From assembly GCA_048886185.1 (NCBI GenBank), contig JBHLKY010000015.1:1-32000 (forward strand): a stretch of 32,000 bases of DNA, written 5' to 3'. Below are positions 4,019 to 10,813 of the stretch, piece by piece. This DNA comes from Candidatus Hermodarchaeota archaeon (GTDB lineage Archaea > Asgardarchaeota > Heimdallarchaeia > Hodarchaeales > Hodarchaeaceae). The first letter of the stretch is position 1; each line of letters starts with the position of its first letter. The notes under the pieces are model-generated. The model ran no database searches and was not told the DNA's origin. It saw only the letters and a program-made list of their open reading frames with translations. Position numbers and translations under genes: made by a program.

Positions 4019-6769
4019 TTAAGCTAATATTTCTAATTGTTCTTTTAACTGGGCTCTCTTTCCCTTTAATTCTTTTAATTTATCTTTTTCTTTTTCAACA
4101 ATATCTGGAGGCGCTTTTTGGGCAAATGGACCTTCCAACTTGGAATATATCTGTTTAATTCTTTTCTGAACATTTTCTAATCTATTTTCTACCTTTTTCC
4201 TTTCTTTTACCAGATCTATTACTCCTTCTAAAGGAATATAAGCGGTTATTCCCTGTATAACAAGACGAGCCGCCCGTTTGGTGTCTTCTAAATGAGGTAA
4301 TATGTAAACTTTTTCTGAATTAATTTTACCAAGAGTTATGATTTCATTTCGATATCTTTCAAGGAAATTTACTCTCACATCTGATTGCACTATTAATGGA
4401 ACTGTTTGTGATAAACTGACATCAAATGCAGCCCTGATTCTTCTTATCTCATGAATGAAATCCATTATGAATTTGAACTCCTCTTCGAGTTCTATGTCTA
4501 TGAAATCTTCAATACAATCTGGCCAATTGCCCACGATTAATGCAGGACCTTGTTTAACAGTTTTAGGTAAATTTTGCCACAATTTCTCGGTGATGAAGGG
4601 AACCATTGGATGCAATAATTTTAAGCAGTAATCCAAGACATGTAGTAAGATCACTTTAGGGATAATTTTATCGGTTTCTTCTTCATCATAAAGTCTTATT
4701 TTACTAATCTCAATATACCAATCACAGAATTCATTCCAATAAAAGGCTTTGATTTCTCTGGATGCTTTCAGGTAATCAAAGTTTGTCATATTTTCTGAAA
4801 CAATTTTTACTAGTGAATGTAATCGTGATAGAATCCACTTATCTGGATATTGTAAATCAGCTATTTTGAAGTTCTTAATCGAAGGTAATTCATCATCTCT
4901 CTGAACATTATTAAGTATAAAACGGGTTGATTGCCAGATTTTATTTAGAAAATGATGGGCTGATTCCAATTGGCGGGGATCCAAGTTTGTGTCTATACCA
5001 GGAATACTATTGGATATTAGAACGAATCGCAATGAATCGGCCCCATATTCAGATATAATGTGTAATGGATCGTATTTATCGACATCTTCCATAGACTTGC
5101 TAATCTTTCTGCCCCTTTCATCTCGGATAAGACCGTGCAAATAAACAGTTTTATACGGCGATCTGCCTGTTAATTCGATTCCAAGCATCATCTCTCTAGC
5201 AACCCAAAAGAAAAGAATATCATATCCAGTTTCTCGTGTATCCGTAGGAAAGAATCGTTTAAAATCAGGGTGATCTGTGTTCGGCCATCCAAGTGTTGAG
5301 AATGGCCATAAACCACTTGAAAACCATGTATCTAAGACATCTTCTTCTTGTCTCAAATTTTCACTTCCACAACTTGGGCATTTTTCGAGCTTATCAACAC
5401 TTGGAGGAGGACATATCTCTTCATTACATTCGCAATACCAGATCGGTATTCTATGCCCCCACCAGAGCTGTCTACTGATACACCAATCGTGTATATTTTC
5501 CATCCACAGGAAAAATCTTTTTTCTTCTCGTTCAGGTATAATAATTGTTTCTTTCTTACGTATTCTCTCTAGAGCGGCATTTGCTAAAGTTTTTGTTCTA
5601 ACAAACCATTGCAGAGAAATTCTAGGTTCAATTATTGTATCACATCGTTGGCAATGAGGCTCTTGGTGAAGATAAGGTTCTATTTTAACTAATAGATTTT
5701 CTTTCTTCAAATCCTTTACAATTGCTTCACGGCCCTCCTCACGTGTCATACCAACATAAGGACCTGAATGTTCAGGTAGTAAGTGTACTCTTTCATCTAG
5801 GACAGTTATTACTTCTAAATTATGTCGTTGGCCAATCTCAAAGTCATTAGGGTCATGGCCAGGAGTGATTTTTAGAGCACCTGTTCCAAATTCAGGATCT
5901 ACATAATCATCAACTATAATTGGAATTTCCCGTGCATTAACAGGCAGTATTGCTGTTTTTCCTTCGAATTTACCATACTTTTCATGATTAGCAGCGATAG
6001 CAACAGCTGTATCTCCTAAGAGAGTTTCAGGGCGGGTTGTAGCAACAACAATAAACTCTGGTGCTCCTTCAGCCCACTTACCACTCCCCCACTCAGCTAG
6101 TGGCTTTTTCCAATCCTCATCCACGATTGGATATTTGATGTACCATAACTGACTTGCCTTCTCCCCAGATATTGTTTCTAGATCAGAAATTGCAGATTCA
6201 CAACGAGGGCACCAATTAACCATATATTCCCCTCTATAGATCAATCCTTTTGAATATAAACGGTAGAATGCTTCACGAACAGCTCGTGTACAAACCGAGT
6301 CAAGCGTGAATCTTTCTCTGTTCCAATCGCTACTCATCCCCATCCGTTTTGATTGTTCTGTTATCCGTGTATGATATTTTTCCTTCCATTCCCAGACTTT
6401 TTCGATGAATTTCTCTCGTCCTAAATCCTTTCTTTTAATTCCCTGTTTCAATAGTTCCCTTTCGACTACATTTTGGGTTGCAATTCCTGCGTGATCCGTA
6501 CCAGGGATAAATAAAGCTTCCTTTTGTTGCATACGCGCGAATCGTGTCATAAAATCTTCAATAGAAATTGTAACTGCATGACCAAGATGAAGCTGACCAG
6601 TTACATTTGGCAATGGAATTGTAATACAAAATCGGGGGCTCTTATGTCTATCCACTAATCCCAATTCGATTTGCTTTTCAGGTCTAAAAAATCCATTTCC
6701 TTCCCACCATTCATAGATTTCTTCTTCGAGGCCCCGATGATCATAGGAGGTACCAAGTCCTTCATTCAT
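4019..6769 (-). CDS. valS: Valyl-tRNA synthetase, bacterial/eukaryotic-type
   Basis: PNVTGQLHLGH (HIGH), TDHAGIATQ, ATTRPETLLGDTAVA, FGTGALKITPGHD, WCISRQLWWGHRIP, DVLDTWFSS, GYDILFFWVARE, KISKS (KMSKS variant), and a C-terminal coiled-coil arm containing KAPPDIVEKEK. Confidence 0.98.
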   Translation of the reverse strand: MNEGLGTSYDHRGLEEEIYEWWEGNGFFRPEKQIELGLVDRHKSPRFCITIPLPNVTGQLHLGHAVTISIEDFMTRFARMQQKEALFIPGTDHAGIATQNVVERELLKQGIKRKDLGREKFIEKVWEWKEKYHTRITEQSKRMGMSSDWNRERFTLDSVCTRAVREAFYRLYSKGLIYRGEYMVNWCPRCESAISDLETISGEKASQLWYIKYPIVDEDWKKPLAEWGSGKWAEGAPEFIVVATTRPETLLGDTAVAIAANHEKYGKFEGKTAILPVNAREIPIIVDDYVDPEFGTGALKITPGHDPNDFEIGQRHNLEVITVLDERVHLLPEHSGPYVGMTREEGREAIVKDLKKENLLVKIEPYLHQEPHCQRCDTIIEPRISLQWFVRTKTLANAALERIRKKETIIIPEREEKRFFLWMENIHDWCISRQLWWGHRIPIWYCECNEEICPPPSVDKLEKCPSCGSENLRQEEDVLDTWFSSGLWPFSTLGWPNTDHPDFKRFFPTDTRETGYDILFFWVAREMMLGIELTGRSPYKTVYLHGLIRDERGRKISKSMEDVDKYDPLHIISEYGADSLRFVLISNSIPGIDTNLDPRQLESAHHFLNKIWQSTRFILNNVQRDDELPSIKNFKIADLQYPDKWILSRLHSLVKIVSENMTNFDYLKASREIKAFYWNEFCDWYIEISKIRLYDEEETDKIIPKVILLHVLDYCLKLLHPMVPFITEKLWQNLPKTVKQGPALIVGNWPDCIEDFIDIELEEEFKFIMDFIHEIRRIRAAFDVSLSQTVPLIVQSDVRVNFLERYRNEIITLGKINSEKVYILPHLEDTKRAARLVIQGITAYIPLEGVIDLVKERKKVENRLENVQKRIKQIYSKLEGPFAQKAPPDIVEKEKDKLKELKGKRAQLKEQLEILA

Positions 6770-6853: not shown

Positions 6854-8641
6854 GTGAAATTTTTTATAACTGAAATAAAAACTAGTTCTTGCAATCGAGG
6901 TTACCTCCAGATGAGCTCGTATGATAATTTTTTGAAACCAAGTGAACCTCACTTAGTTGTGGGGCGGCGAAGCCATGAAAAACGATTTGAAGCGATTTTG
7001 GCCGATTTTAAAGAGAATAATCTCAAAGGAAATTTCATTCTCATATCTGGGTCACCTGGAATTGGGAAAACAAGTCTGTTGAAAGTATTTGGTGAAATTG
7101 TAAAGAATGAGATGATGATTTTTGTTCCTGTTAGTATTGGAATGGGAGGGAAAATGAATCAATATCTCTTTCGTGACATATATCAGGCGATTTCCCCTCA
7201 TTTGACGGAAGAAAAAACAGGGTTCTTTAAGAAATCTAAAGAGGAATCAATAAAAGCTTTTACTCCTAAATCAAAAATGTCTGAAATCATCAGTAGCTTT
7301 TCTAATAATCTAACTCATCGCCCCATTAAATCTCCTATTGTAGTTGCTTTAGATCCACTAGATAGAATTCTAGATTCCGGGCAAAAATATGTTATTGAGG
7401 GTTTTCAAGCTCTAATAAAAGTTCTACAGAGTAGGTTTCCACAAGTATTGTTTATTGGTACTTGCCAAGAATACAATGCTGAAGAGATAAAAGAACTTGT
7501 TCAAATTAGTGAGTATTTTGTCTTAGATAAGTTAGATTTTTCTGATTCAAAGCTCTTAATCTCTAAGATCGCTCGCGGAACATTACGAAGTAGTAGTCAA
7601 TTACGAGATGAGTTAGTGAAACAAAGTGATCGCTCCCCTTTCAATCTTGTTTTCATTGTAGATGTGATCCATTGGGTTGAAGACAAAATTAAGCAGGAGG
7701 ATTTAGATGACAACGAAAGAACAATTAAAGAGATGGCTCAACCTTTCGTCCGTACCTTTGCTCTTCGCTCTTTTCTTCAGGAAATACTTAAAATTAATGA
7801 GGGGGAAAATGAAGTACTCCAACTTATGCTAGGATCCCCTCGTAATGCTGTTTCTCAAGAAGTATTTGACTCAGCCAAGATTCCAAGTAGTAACCTCAGC
7901 AGCTTAGAAACCAAAGGATTAATATCTAAACACGGAGATTATTATCAATTATCAAGTTATGCATCTTTTACTCTGCTAGGTTCAGGTCTTTCAGTTGTGG
8001 ATTTAAAAGCTGAGGCAGGTCTATTACTCCAAATTCTAGAAACAGATATGATGATGGGATTTGAGATCAATCCAAAGGTTTTGGAACGGTTAGAACAGGC
8101 TTCATTCTCTGCAGGACGATTAGAAGATAAATCTATACCAAATCGTACAAAATCCCTTTTTCAAAGTGCTTTTGAAACCAGAAAATTCTTTGAAGCTTAT
8201 CGTTTAGCTTTACTTACAGGTAATTTTTTACGGATGGCGAAGGATGTGGAGGGTTGTGGTCTTTTCTTTGAGGAATGTGCCCGAGAGTTCTATAATCAAG
8301 AGAAACTTCCATATACAATTGCACTTTATCGAAAATCTCTGGAAGCATATCGTTTAGTAAAGAATGAGAGGAAACGTAAAGATATCAGTCAGCGAACTGC
8401 AATGATTTATCTTCAAAATGCTGAAAAATATGATAAGCAACACCAATTAGAATTAGCCCGATCATCATACTATCACGCTTTTAAATTATTTGAAGGAGCA
8501 GATGACATCAATTCAGCAACTGATGCTGTTAGTAAGGCAATTAAGACATATTCATCAGATGCAGAGGCATCTTTCTTTAAATCACTTCAAAAAAATCTCA
8601 AACCAAGAATAGTAAAATCTCCAACAGAGATTAATAATTGA
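6854..8641 (+). CDS. STAND/AAA_16-like P-loop NTPase with winged helix and C-terminal TPR/alpha-SNAP-like helical repeats
   Basis: VVGR pre-P-loop motif, Walker A ISGSPGIGKT, Walker B-like IVVALDPLD, GxP-equivalent RSPFNL, wHTH-like LSSLETKGLISKHGDYYQL, and helical repeats after about 8190. Start is either GTG 6854 (GAGGTGA upstream) or ATG 6911. Confidence 0.8.
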   Translation: MKFFITEIKTSSCNRGYLQMSSYDNFLKPSEPHLVVGRRSHEKRFEAILADFKENNLKGNFILISGSPGIGKTSLLKVFGEIVKNEMMIFVPVSIGMGGKMNQYLFRDIYQAISPHLTEEKTGFFKKSKEESIKAFTPKSKMSEIISSFSNNLTHRPIKSPIVVALDPLDRILDSGQKYVIEGFQALIKVLQSRFPQVLFIGTCQEYNAEEIKELVQISEYFVLDKLDFSDSKLLISKIARGTLRSSSQLRDELVKQSDRSPFNLVFIVDVIHWVEDKIKQEDLDDNERTIKEMAQPFVRTFALRSFLQEILKINEGENEVLQLMLGSPRNAVSQEVFDSAKIPSSNLSSLETKGLISKHGDYYQLSSYASFTLLGSGLSVVDLKAEAGLLLQILETDMMMGFEINPKVLERLEQASFSAGRLEDKSIPNRTKSLFQSAFETRKFFEAYRLALLTGNFLRMAKDVEGCGLFFEECAREFYNQEKLPYTIALYRKSLEAYRLVKNERKRKDISQRTAMIYLQNAEKYDKQHQLELARSSYYHAFKLFEGADDINSATDAVSKAIKTYSSDAEASFFKSLQKNLKPRIVKSPTEINN

Positions 8642-8656: not shown

Positions 8657-10813
8657 ATGAGTACAGAACAAAATGATAAAATTAGTGAAATTCAAGATCA
8701 AAAAATAAAAATAGAAAGCGAAAACACTCAGATTCAGCAAAGAGTTTTAAATTTTCAAAAAGAAAGTAAAAAAGCAGTGGAAAGTTTTACCAGTTCATTG
8801 AACCAATCTAAGTCAAAAACTCTTTCTGAAATTAACTTATTAATGGATAATATCGATAATTTAACGAAAGAACTAGAGGATTACAAGAAAAGAACCCTAG
8901 TCTCGGAGAAAGGAGCTTTAAGTAGCCGATTGGATGGCTTGTTAGGACAGGTTAACTCTAGTATAGAGGGATTACAGAAATCAGTTATTGAATTATCTAC
9001 TAAACAGGAAGAAGACGTTTCTACAATCTATTCACAAATGGGGAGAAAAATTAACACTGGATTAAGTGATATTTATTCCAACCAACGAGCTCAGATAACT
9101 GAATTTGAAAAATCTATTTCTAGTAAATTAGCCCAAATTCAACGTGATATTGTTAGTACAGTTGAAAGTGAAAGTGCTAATCAGCGAGAGATGACCGAAA
9201 ATATTGCTACTTATTTCTTAGAATCATTAGATGATTTTCAATCAAAAATTAGAGATCTAAGTGATTCCAAAGAAACAAATGTGGATGCAATCTTTACTAG
9301 TACAGTCAGCGAGTCTGTGGGTCGTCTAGAGATAGCCAAAGAGGATTTACTAGCAAGTATTGATGGTGTAATGAATAATCTTGAGGAAAGTCTTTCTAAT
9401 CAAAAATCAACGAATGAACAGATGCAGTCAGCTATTAAGGATTTAATTACAAAAACAAAATCGGATGTCAAAACAAGAATTGAGAATCAACTATTGGAAT
9501 CAAGGGAAGACTGGAAAACAATTCAAGATACAGAAATAGAATCTCTTTCATCTGTTAAAGAAACTACTATAGGTTCTTTTCAGAAAGCCTTGGAAACCAG
9601 TGAATTATCTCAAAATAATCTATTAGCTGAATTAGAAAACCAATTAAAAACCAATCTTTATAATGAAATTGATAATATTACCCTTTCTTTTACGAAATTT
9701 CAGGACTCGATTATCAATCAAATTGATGCTCTCATTTCCCGGTTAACAAGTGCTCGTGATGAGATGAGAGAAAGCTTAAGCAGTCTTCTTGTAAGTAATT
9801 TGAATAAAATAGGTGGGATCGGGAAGCAGCTTGAACAACACCTTTCAGGAGTATTATCCCAAATTTCTGATGAATATGAAAACAGTCGAGAGAGCATTTA
9901 CACAAGTTTAATTGCTGCTATCGAAGAAAGATTCAGTAAAATAGTTACTTCTCTGGAACAATATACAACAACAACCAACTCTAAACTCCAAAAAACCGCT
10001 ACTGATCTTGATGTTTCTCTTCTTGACTTTTTTGATTCAACACAGAAGAATATCTCTGAGACAGTTGATAAAAACAGTTCGACACTTAATCAACTAAGGA
10101 ACACTGTTAATGAGTCTTTTAGAACCCTACAAGCGGGACAGGAAAAAAATATAGAGACTACACTTACTGATGTTCGAGCAGCTTTGCGAACGAAACAAAG
10201 TGAATTGGTTACCACCATTAGCAGTATTTCTCCAGCTGCTGAAGATCATATTGAATCCAATCGTGAATATATTGAAGGAAAGAAATCAGAAATATCAAGA
10301 ACAAGTTCTACTGCTTTTGACGACCTTAGAAAACAGGCAATTGCTATTGAACAGGATGGAATGACCACTATTCATTCCATTGTCGGAGAAACTAATCAGA
10401 AACTTGATGAAAGTATCAGTATCAGTGAGCAGAGTACTAAAGAACTCATTGAAGGACTAGAGGATGAACATAAACTATCCGTTGCGAAATTCCGTTCAAA
10501 TTCTACTCAAGAACTAGATAAACATTTGGAAACTCTCACTGAATATCAAAATAATCTCCAGGAAAAATTCACAAAGTTTTTTGATAATCAACAACAAAGT
10601 CTTGATTTGTTTGTCAACGCAAACCGAAAGGGTCGAGAAGCAATAGATGATCAACGTCGTAATCTTGATGTTAAGTTCGAAGAGATTAATAATAGCATCG
10701 AGACCGCTGCCGATTCACTCTCTATGAATATTACCACTAATACAGGAAATGTTACAACTTCGGTAAAACAGGTTTTAAAGGATGTTAATGATGTTATCAA
10801 GACTATAAAATGA
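8657..10813 (+). CDS. Long soluble all-alpha-helical / coiled-coil protein (apolipoprotein-like amphipathic repeats)
   Basis: 718 aa, rich in S/T/E/Q/N/L/I, with 1 Pro, 1 Trp, no Cys, no TM segment and continuous 3-4 hydrophobic spacing. Confidence 0.85.
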   Translation: MSTEQNDKISEIQDQKIKIESENTQIQQRVLNFQKESKKAVESFTSSLNQSKSKTLSEINLLMDNIDNLTKELEDYKKRTLVSEKGALSSRLDGLLGQVNSSIEGLQKSVIELSTKQEEDVSTIYSQMGRKINTGLSDIYSNQRAQITEFEKSISSKLAQIQRDIVSTVESESANQREMTENIATYFLESLDDFQSKIRDLSDSKETNVDAIFTSTVSESVGRLEIAKEDLLASIDGVMNNLEESLSNQKSTNEQMQSAIKDLITKTKSDVKTRIENQLLESREDWKTIQDTEIESLSSVKETTIGSFQKALETSELSQNNLLAELENQLKTNLYNEIDNITLSFTKFQDSIINQIDALISRLTSARDEMRESLSSLLVSNLNKIGGIGKQLEQHLSGVLSQISDEYENSRESIYTSLIAAIEERFSKIVTSLEQYTTTTNSKLQKTATDLDVSLLDFFDSTQKNISETVDKNSSTLNQLRNTVNESFRTLQAGQEKNIETTLTDVRAALRTKQSELVTTISSISPAAEDHIESNREYIEGKKSEISRTSSTAFDDLRKQAIAIEQDGMTTIHSIVGETNQKLDESISISEQSTKELIEGLEDEHKLSVAKFRSNSTQELDKHLETLTEYQNNLQEKFTKFFDNQQQSLDLFVNANRKGREAIDDQRRNLDVKFEEINNSIETAADSLSMNITTNTGNVTTSVKQVLKDVNDVIKTIK

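What the first reader, a model, noticed from the sequence alone, without database searches (positions are those of the whole stretch)
8192..8641. alpha-SNAP-like domain fused to the C-terminus of a P-loop ATPase
Seen: EAYRLALLTGNFLRMAKDVEGCGLFFEECAREFYNQEKLPYTIALYRKSLEAYR (8192-8353). It aligns without gaps to the human alpha-SNAP segment as I recall it ([54 protein letters not shown]), 10 of 54 identical, including N-x2-[KR]-M-A-K-[DN]-x4-G-x2-F-x3-A. EAYRL also recurs exactly 150 nt apart with 15/16 identical bases (8192-8207, 8342-8357). Established: alpha-SNAP is the TPR-like adaptor that couples the ATPase NSF to SNARE helical bundles. Inference: an ATPase-adaptor fusion. Generic TPR similarity is a real alternative.
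Basis: partly seen in the sequence, partly recalled or inferred. Interest (0 to 1): 0.7.

Follow-up and report, generated by a model that had tools for sequence, protein, structure and literature searches.

The report
SNAP-shaped TPR tail on Asgard ATPase
The C-terminal 150 residues of this Asgard-archaeal P-loop ATPase form a four-hairpin TPR domain shaped like the front half of SNAP/Sec17, but it is the usual sensor domain of a STAND-type switch ATPase, not a SNAP adaptor fused to an NSF-like motor.

Summary
The quoted peptide, its 10/54 identities to genuine alpha-SNAP and the repeated 16-mer are all present. The gene (6911-8641, 576 aa) encodes Walker-A NTPase, helical domain, winged helix and eight C-terminal helices.

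**Against SNAP membership**
- The best whole-length structural match is PH0952, an archaeal STAND ATPase with a TPR sensor.
- PF14938 scores 15.8 bits (cut-off 25), level with MIT and TPR_MalT. Relatives reach at most 24.6 bits.
- More than 40 other TPR stretches in the same genome match that model better, and it also matches E. coli-type control genomes.
- SNAP's C-terminal bundle and conserved end are missing.
- Sequence and structure alignments land in different repeat registers.

**For a SNAP-like shape**
- SNAP is the commonest top Pfam hit across the family.
- The model overlays Sec17 residues 28-190 at Z 13.8-13.9, rmsd 3.6-3.8 Å. This ties with LGN/Pins on Z but has lower rmsd.

I therefore read it as a SNAP-shaped TPR, not a SNAP. 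The gene is accessory, found so far only in Asgard archaea, and always followed by a long all-helical protein (718 aa here). First-reader notes of this scan describe the same two-gene unit in three other genomes, and follow-up reports describe SNAP-shaped TPR modules in several other Asgard genomes. Interest is modest.

The parts
6911..8641 (+). Gene for the 576-aa NTPase-wHTH-TPR protein. An in-frame GTG at 6854 would add 19 residues.
   Evidence: ORF list. All 31 aligned homologs start at the ATG-equivalent position. The own-genome search places the match at C15:6911-8626.
6968..7525 (+). P-loop nucleotide-binding domain (residues about 20-205)
   Evidence: Pfam AAA_16 scores 36.2 bits against a cut-off of 32.6. 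The AF2 model shows five parallel strands with flanking helices.
7049..7075 (+). Walker A motif GSPGIGKTS (residues 47-55)
   Evidence: G50, G52 and K53 are invariant in 31 sequences.
7337..7366 (+). Walker B strand hhhhD-x-x-D-R (residues 143-152). The usual second acidic residue directly after the Asp is absent.
   Evidence: D148 and D151 are invariant and R152 nearly so. Position 149 is P, S, N, T or C.
7538..7789 (+). Helical domain after the NBD (residues about 210-293), with the conserved S-P-F motif
   Evidence: AF2 helices 210-293. S239, P243 and F244 are invariant.
7799..7978 (+). Winged-helix domain (residues about 297-356)
   Evidence: The AF2 model shows three helices and a beta hairpin, 338-341 and 344-347. 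Foldseek matches to STAND and Orc/Cdc6 span this region.
8132..8593 (+). C-terminal TPR-like domain: eight helices in four hairpins (residues 408-561), with a SNAP/Sec17-N-domain-like shape
   Evidence: The AF2 model of the domain alone has pLDDT 91.8.
8192..8353 (+).
   Evidence: 10/54 identities, BLOSUM62 score 25.
8192..8207 (+). First EAYRL 16-mer
8342..8357 (+). Second EAYRL 16-mer (one mismatch)
8594..8638 (+). Variable, low-confidence C-terminal tail (residues 562-576)
   Evidence: pLDDT is below 50 for 566-576. The alignment columns are not conserved.
8657..10813 (+). Co-oriented partner gene 15 nt downstream: a 718-aa all-helical amphipathic protein
   Evidence: Translation. It is conserved directly downstream of the ATPase gene in Thor-, Hod-, Hermod-, Hel- and Loki-type contigs. 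It is 36% identical to the Thor copy over 718 residues without a gap.

Best explanation
The gene encodes an AAA_16-class (STAND / Orc-Cdc6-like) P-loop NTPase laid out as NBD, helical domain, winged helix and a C-terminal four-hairpin TPR domain. The TPR domain belongs to the long-helix, low-curvature 'SNAP-shaped' TPR subclass that Asgard and other archaea use in many different proteins.

By analogy with PH0952 and MalT, I infer that it is the sensor or protein-binding domain of a nucleotide-dependent switch. In the resting state it would pack against the NTPase core, and binding of a ligand would release it and allow oligomerisation or partner engagement. The most likely ligand is the co-encoded 718-aa helical protein, or something bound to it.

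The non-canonical Walker B (D-x-x-D, with no acid directly after the Asp) suggests slow hydrolysis, which fits a switch better than a motor.

Shown here: the domain layout, the family, the synteny and the sub-threshold, non-specific SNAP signal. Inferred: the sensor role, the partner binding and the switch behaviour.
For: **ATPase core**
- Pfam AAA_16 scores above its cut-off; ATPase_2, KAP, NACHT and nSTAND3 are weaker.
- The AF2 model has pLDDT 88 with the order NBD-HD-WHD-helical array.
- The best Foldseek match for the whole chain is 6mfv, the PH0952 STAND with TPR sensor (E 3e-9, 665 columns). Next come the archaeal ATPases 2fna and 2qen, Orc/Cdc6, SAMD9, Avs and NOD2.
- The PH0952/MalT paper describes TPR-sensor autoinhibition (PMC6468293).

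**TPR tail**
- The tail model has pLDDT 91.8.
- It matches gamma-SNAP, KLC2 and consensus TPRs at nearly equal Foldseek E-values of 7e-4 to 1.4e-3.
- It ties LGN/Pins (Z 14.0-14.5) with Sec17 and alpha-SNAP (Z 13.8-13.9).
- The nearest sequence relatives of the tail outside the family are multidomain TPR proteins (at least one from Theionarchaea) with VWA or solute-binding domains, in which PF14938 scores 41-67 bits. The module is therefore promiscuous.

**Cassette**
- The ATPase and helical-partner pair is kept in six Asgard lineages with different flanking genes.
Against: No ligand or interaction has been shown. The protein has no recognisable effector domain, so the output of the switch is unknown. 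The Walker B and the Q at the sensor-1 position depart from textbook STAND motifs, so assignment to STAND rather than the broader Orc/Cdc6-PF01637 group is not secure. SNAP is the top Pfam hit in most divergent members, at 20-24.6 bits against 17 or less for generic TPR models. A specific, if distant, tie to SNAP-type TPRs therefore remains possible.
Confidence: 0.6

Rival explanations
1. A genuine, truncated SNAP homolog fused to an ATPase. The SNAP-type sheet would grip the helical bundle of the downstream 718-aa protein as SNAP grips SNARE bundles, and the ATPase would remodel it, giving a one-chain analogue of NSF plus SNAP.
For: PF14938 is the most frequent Pfam hit across the family (23 of 28 members, best E 1.4e-5). 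hhalign of the family profile against a vertebrate SNAP alignment gives 63% probability, against 0.6-0.7% for reversed controls. Sec17 28-190 superposes at rmsd 3.6-3.8 Å over 146-147 residues, a tighter fit than LGN at about 6 Å. Eukaryotic alpha- and gamma-SNAP clusters are among the nearest Atlas shapes, with TM 0.63. The conserved neighbour is a long helical protein.
Against: Every member scores below the PF14938 cut-off. The model scores higher on more than 40 other TPR stretches of the same genome and matches 11 of 14 control prokaryotes. A family profile searched against PDB sequences puts designed TPRs, OGT and CTPR3 ahead of or level with Sec17 (E 0.94). The alignments fall in at least three different registers. 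Only SNAP model positions of about 21-158 of 282 are covered, so the C-terminal bundle and the conserved D293-L294 end are absent. The ATPase is not of the NSF/Cdc48 type.
Confidence: 0.07
2. An Avs-like antiviral STAND system. The TPR tail would sense a viral protein and the helical partner would act as effector or scaffold.
For: The distribution is patchy: 3 of 9 other genomes in the same genus, 14 of 59 genera and 29 of 201 Asgard genomes at E <= 1e-10. The flanking genes differ between genomes. The STAND plus TPR layout and the Foldseek matches to Avs3, Avs5 and SAMD9 also fit.
Against: There are no meaningful PADLOC hits for the ATPase: only two marginal ones, mad8 at 15.6 bits and PDC-S39 at 13.9 bits. 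For the partner there are only compositional coiled-coil hits to ZorA tails. No nuclease, SIR2, TIR, protease or pore-forming effector is present. No defence genes are evident beside it in the window.
Confidence: 0.2
3. A MalT-like transcription regulator, in which the winged helix binds DNA once the TPR sensor has bound a small or protein inducer.
For: The layout is NBD-HD-WHD-TPR, and the best structural match is a MalT homolog (PMC6468293).
Against: In STAND proteins the winged helix is part of the nucleotide-binding core and is not a DNA reader. MalT uses a separate LuxR-type domain, which is absent here. The conserved partner is a 718-aa structural-looking protein, not a regulon.
Confidence: 0.08

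Closest known systems
PH0952 (Pyrococcus horikoshii) and MalT: STAND NTPases with a TPR sensor (PDB 6mfv; PMC6468293)
   Same: The domain order is the same: P-loop NBD, helical domain, winged helix and C-terminal TPR array. It is the best whole-chain Foldseek match (E 3e-9, 665 aligned columns).
   Different: Sequence identity is only 15%. The TPR array is much shorter, with four hairpins. There is no N-terminal or LuxR effector domain. Walker B is D-x-x-D rather than D-[DE]. The gene has a conserved helical-rod partner.
alpha/beta/gamma-SNAP and Sec17 (Pfam PF14938; PDB 1qqe, 2ifu, 3j96, 9nlu)
   Same: A long-helix TPR-like hairpin sheet. The model overlays Sec17 28-190 at Z 13.8-13.9 and rmsd 3.6-3.8 Å. 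PF14938 is the commonest top Pfam hit in the family.
   Different: The score is below the Pfam cut-off. Only about the front half is present. There is no C-terminal globular bundle, no conserved C-terminal Asp-Leu and no Gly-rich hydrophobic loop. The alignment registers are inconsistent. The domain is fused to a non-NSF ATPase.
Archaeal ATPases of Pfam PF01637 (SSO1545, PDB 2fna; PAB2304, PDB 2qen) and Orc1/Cdc6
   Same: An AAA+-like NBD, lid and winged helix. Foldseek E-values are 6e-8 to 1e-6, and there is a weak ATPase_2 Pfam hit.
   Different: Those proteins lack a TPR tail. This protein has no origin-binding features.
LGN/Pins and kinesin light chain TPR domains (TPR_12 type)
   Same: They tie as the best structural matches for the tail: LGN/Pins Z 14.0-14.5, KLC2 Foldseek E 7.3e-4.
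   Different: The rmsd is higher (about 6 Å), because those arrays are more strongly curved. There is no sequence signal above the noise.
Archaeal multidomain 'SNAP-domain' TPR proteins (VWA-TPR, SBP-TPR; Theionarchaea, Thorarchaeota and Methanobacteriota clusters)
   Same: They are the nearest non-family relatives of the tail by profile search (E 1e-17 to 1e-9) and by shape (TM 0.62-0.67).
   Different: They have longer arrays, score above the PF14938 cut-off (41-67 bits) and have different N-terminal domains.

Membership tests
SNAP (PF14938; alpha/beta/gamma-SNAP, Sec17) | Score at or above the Pfam gathering cut-off (25 bits) | tested here: not met
   The window protein scores 15.8 bits (tail alone) or 11.1 bits (whole protein). 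The best of the ten most divergent tails scanned individually scores 24.6 bits; the best family E-value is 1.4e-5.
SNAP (PF14938; alpha/beta/gamma-SNAP, Sec17) | The SNAP model is clearly preferred over generic TPR-clan models | tested here: inconclusive
   For this protein the scores tie: MIT 16.4, SNAP 15.8, TPR_MalT 14.8. In divergent relatives SNAP comes top but stays below the cut-off. In the reverse direction, the family profile ranks designed TPRs and OGT above Sec17.
SNAP (PF14938; alpha/beta/gamma-SNAP, Sec17) | N-terminal twisted sheet of TPR-like hairpins | tested here: met
   Sec17 28-190: Z 13.8-13.9, rmsd 3.6-3.8 Å, 146-147 residues. Gamma-SNAP: Z 12.1, rmsd 2.5 Å, 143 residues. 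The Z-scores tie with LGN/Pins and designed repeats, so this feature is not discriminating.
SNAP (PF14938; alpha/beta/gamma-SNAP, Sec17) | C-terminal globular helical bundle completing the roughly 290-aa protein | tested here: not met
   Only eight helices (about 155 aa) precede a disordered tail. Pfam alignments stop at about model position 158 of 282.
SNAP (PF14938; alpha/beta/gamma-SNAP, Sec17) | Conserved extreme C-terminus (Asp-Leu near the end) that stimulates NSF | tested here: not met
   D293 and L294 are nearly invariant in the SNAP alignment. The tail of this family is variable and has pLDDT below 50. The role of this end in NSF stimulation comes from my own knowledge.
SNAP (PF14938; alpha/beta/gamma-SNAP, Sec17) | Gly-rich hydrophobic loop before helix 2 (the S-F-F-x-G-x-F-G-G region) | tested here: inconclusive
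   hhalign overlays K-S-L-F-x-S-A-F on this loop. The family segment lacks the glycines, however, and is predicted to be helical.
SNAP (PF14938; alpha/beta/gamma-SNAP, Sec17) | Works with an NSF/Sec18-type AAA+ ATPase and SNARE bundles | not testable with these tools
   The fused ATPase is AAA_16/STAND-like, not NSF-like. The only SNARE-domain hit in the genome is below its cut-off, at 23.9 against 26.8 bits.
STAND / AAA_16 NTPases with TPR sensor (MalT, PH0952) | P-loop NBD with Walker A; Pfam AAA_16 above its cut-off | tested here: met
   AAA_16 scores 36.2 bits against 32.6. The G-x-G-K-[ST] motif is invariant.
STAND / AAA_16 NTPases with TPR sensor (MalT, PH0952) | NBD, helical domain and winged helix core followed by a repeat sensor | tested here: met
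   AF2 secondary-structure order. The whole-chain match to 6mfv has E 3e-9 over 665 columns.
STAND / AAA_16 NTPases with TPR sensor (MalT, PH0952) | Canonical Walker B hhhhD[DE] | tested here: not met
   The family has hhhhD-x-x-D-R. The residue after D148 is P, S, N, T or C.
STAND / AAA_16 NTPases with TPR sensor (MalT, PH0952) | STAND-specific motifs (sensor-1 Arg, GxP in the helical domain, conserved His in the winged helix) | tested here: inconclusive
   An invariant S-P-F may stand for the GxP motif. A conserved Q186 sits where the sensor-1 Arg is expected. No residue-level structural comparison was possible.
STAND / AAA_16 NTPases with TPR sensor (MalT, PH0952) | Inducer-triggered nucleotide exchange and oligomerisation | not testable with these tools
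   This needs biochemistry.

The most novel reading that the evidence does not exclude
The SNAP-shaped TPR modules that Asgard archaea attach to many proteins, this one included, are the stock from which eukaryotic SNAP arose. Here the module already does a SNAP-like job: it holds a long helical rod (the 718-aa partner) for a nucleotide-driven switch that assembles or dismantles it.
Probability: 0.07. Interest if true: 0.75.

Novelty: new member of a known kind. Interest (0 to 1): 0.3.

Why it matters
A true SNAP homolog fused to an ATPase in an Asgard archaeon would bear on how the eukaryotic membrane-fusion machinery arose. The tests show no such thing. The SNAP signal is the resemblance expected from a long-helix TPR array, and the protein has the standard STAND-type sensor layout. 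This guards against over-reading PF14938 hits in Asgard genomes.

What remains of interest is an uncharacterised accessory two-gene cassette found so far only in Asgard archaea: a switch ATPase plus a rod-like protein whose length is conserved. Its function is unknown.

Tried and rejected
- **Complex prediction.** The TPR tail (alignment A3) with the 718-aa partner (alignment A5) gave 'no answer' (score 0.02 against a mark of 0.32). This is evidence neither for nor against binding.
- **phmmer of the tail against PDB sequences.** Only chance hits to ribosomal protein uS17.
- **ESM Atlas feature search.** Only generic bacterial TPR clusters at 0.85-0.88, below the useful range, and no SNAP cluster.
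- **hhalign of the narrow vertebrate SNAP profile against single sequences.** The window tail gave 0.8%, and generic TPR controls gave 1.5% and 4.0%, so this test was uninformative.
- **No proper profile-profile control.** The 63% hhalign probability was calibrated only against reversed sequences, because no generic TPR family profile could be built.
- **EAYRL as a duplication mark.** Rejected, because the two copies occupy non-equivalent helix positions.
- **PADLOC.** No defence-family assignment.
- **Literature searches.** Nothing found for SNAP or PF14938 in Asgard archaea, or for this family.

Full report
**Observation.** The ORF can start at GTG 6854. All 31 aligned homologs begin at the ATG at 6911, however, which gives 576 residues. 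The ungapped overlay gives 10/54 identities and a BLOSUM62 score of 25. The two 16-mers encoding EAYRL differ at one base and lie 150 nt apart.

**How much the overlay means.** Ten identities are reached by 20% of shuffles of the tail. Ordinary TPR proteins of the same genome give 10-12 identities and scores of 30-38. The EAYRL copies sit at the start of one helix and the end of another, 50 residues apart against a hairpin period of about 40. They therefore do not mark a repeat unit.

**The protein as a whole.** Pfam finds AAA_16 above its cut-off (36.2 bits) and weaker P-loop families such as ATPase_2, KAP, NACHT and nSTAND3. AlphaFold2 with 31 homologs gives a confident model (pLDDT 88). It has a five-stranded P-loop domain, a helical domain, a winged helix, two linker helices and eight C-terminal helices at 408-561.
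- The best whole-chain Foldseek match is 6mfv, the PH0952 STAND protein with a TPR sensor (E 3e-9, 665 columns).
- It is followed by the archaeal ATPases 2fna and 2qen, Orc/Cdc6, SAMD9, Avs and NOD2.
- PH0952 and MalT are the documented case in which the TPR sensor packs on the NTPase core and keeps it closed until an inducer binds (PMC6468293).
- Walker A is invariant.
- Walker B is hhhhD-x-x-D-R, without the usual acid next to the Asp.

**SNAP tests by sequence.** On the tail of this protein PF14938 scores 15.8 bits against a cut-off of 25, level with MIT (16.4) and TPR_MalT (14.8). Across 28 relatives SNAP is the most frequent hit (23 of 28 at E <= 1). In seven of the ten most divergent relatives scanned it is the top hit, at 20-24.6 bits, while generic TPR models stay at 17 bits or less. 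None reaches the cut-off.
- Searching the whole genome with PF14938 returns 40 matches, at least eight above the cut-off. They lie in large proteins whose real families are TPR_12, TPR_1 and TPR_MalT, at 46-144 bits.
- This gene is not among those 40 matches.
- The same model matches 11 of 14 control prokaryote genomes.
- In the reverse direction, a profile of the tail searched against PDB sequences ranks a designed TPR toroid first. It places OGT and CTPR3 level with Sec17, which has E 0.94.
- hhalign of the tail profile against a 12-sequence vertebrate SNAP alignment gives 63% probability. Reversed controls give 0.6-0.7%.

Register-hopping of this kind is what similarity between repeats looks like.

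**SNAP tests by structure.** The tail folded alone has pLDDT 91.8.
- Foldseek puts gamma-SNAP (7e-4), KLC2 (7.3e-4), a consensus TPR and Sec17/alpha-SNAP (1.4e-3) together.
- An exhaustive VIA-align search gives a designed toroid and Pins at Z 13.3, NASP at 12.5 and gamma-SNAP at 12.1 (rmsd 2.5 Å over 143 residues). In all, 152 chains reach Z >= 8.
- The second-look VIA ranking ties LGN/Pins (Z 14.0-14.5, rmsd about 6 Å) with Sec17 (Z 13.8-13.9, rmsd 3.6-3.8 Å over 146-147 residues, Sec17 28-190).
- By shape in the ESM Atlas, the nearest clusters are archaeal TPR proteins that carry PF14938 (Methanobacteriota, Thorarchaeota). Eukaryotic alpha- and gamma-SNAP follow at TM 0.63.

So the twisted hairpin sheet is there and fits SNAP's front half well. 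It is only that half. The C-terminal bundle and the conserved Asp-Leu end of SNAP have no counterpart, because the tail after helix 8 is variable and disordered.

**Relatives and context.** The family is single-copy in this genome. Named members come only from Asgard lineages: Hod, Heimdall, Thor, Hermod, Hel and Loki. It was found in 29 of 201 Asgard genomes sampled and in only 3 of 9 other genomes of the same genus, so it is an accessory gene.
- Outside the family, the closest relatives of the tail are multidomain TPR proteins with VWA or solute-binding domains in which PF14938 scores 41-67 bits, and bacterial kinase-TPR proteins. One of the former is from Theionarchaea.
- In every contig examined, the next gene downstream is a long all-helical protein. 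It has 718 aa here and in Thor and two Hod-type contigs, 717 aa in Hermod, and 1110-1123 aa in Hel and Loki. The flanking genes differ.
- The Thor partner aligns at 36% identity over all 718 residues without a single gap. The Hermod partner aligns at 23%. The Hel partner shows only weak similarity.
- The partner has only compositional matches, to apolipoprotein A-I and to ZorA tails.

**Reading.** The finding is a real, well-conserved domain with a SNAP-like shape. It is best filed as the TPR sensor of a STAND-type switch NTPase. It fails the membership tests for the SNAP family that could be run, and the ATPase it is fused to is not NSF-like. I infer that the tail mediates autoinhibition and ligand or partner recognition, probably involving the co-encoded rod protein. 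This is not shown. The rivals are a defence system, a true SNAP-like adaptor and a transcription regulator, ranked in the rival section.

First-reader notes of this scan describe the same two-gene unit in three other genomes, and follow-up reports describe SNAP-shaped TPR modules in several Asgard genomes, with the same cautious verdicts. I treat these as leads that agree with my results, not as independent evidence.

Noticed in passing
window 8657-10813; L009:9733-11889; L011:7735-9891; L012:7744-9900; L015:2532-4685: The helical partner keeps a length of 717-718 residues across Hod, Thor and Hermod lineages. It aligns to the Thor copy at 36% identity with no gap over 718 residues, which suggests a strict length or register constraint such as a rod or ruler. 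In Hel and Loki the partner has 1110-1123 aa.
   Followed up: partly
L014:146-1073 and L014:6737-7648; L013:10378-11289: In the Loki-type contig, two Roadblock/LC7 (LAMTOR5-like) genes lie directly upstream of the cassette. A V4R-domain gene follows the cassette in both the Loki and the Hel contigs.
   Followed up: no
L015:4706-7038: In the Hermod contig the cassette is followed by a giant gene (more than 1719 aa) that combines a TrmB domain with apolipoprotein-like helical repeats.
   Followed up: no
own genome G000:C6:143851-144003 (-), outside the window: A 257-aa ORF has a sub-threshold SNARE-domain match (PF05739, 23.9 bits against a cut-off of 26.8). It is the only such hit in the genome.
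   Followed up: no
own genome, e.g. L001:322-2613, L003:1-2679, L004:508-2463: At least eight large TPR_12/TPR_1-type proteins in this genome exceed the PF14938 cut-off at 26-40 bits. Automatic 'SNAP domain' labels in Asgard genomes should therefore be read as a TPR subclass.
   Followed up: partly
window 4019-6769 (-): The divergently oriented valS matches the NCBIfam valine--tRNA ligase equivalog NF004349 (1055.8 bits; by my own knowledge the bacterial-type model) and has the C-terminal tRNA-binding arm (PF10458).
   Followed up: no
G101:C1:9510-11195; G025:C20:39377-40837; G014:C235:10589-11344: Several homologs of the ATPase in related genomes contain in-frame stop codons (TAG, TAA, TGA). 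These may be decaying copies or assembly errors.
   Followed up: no
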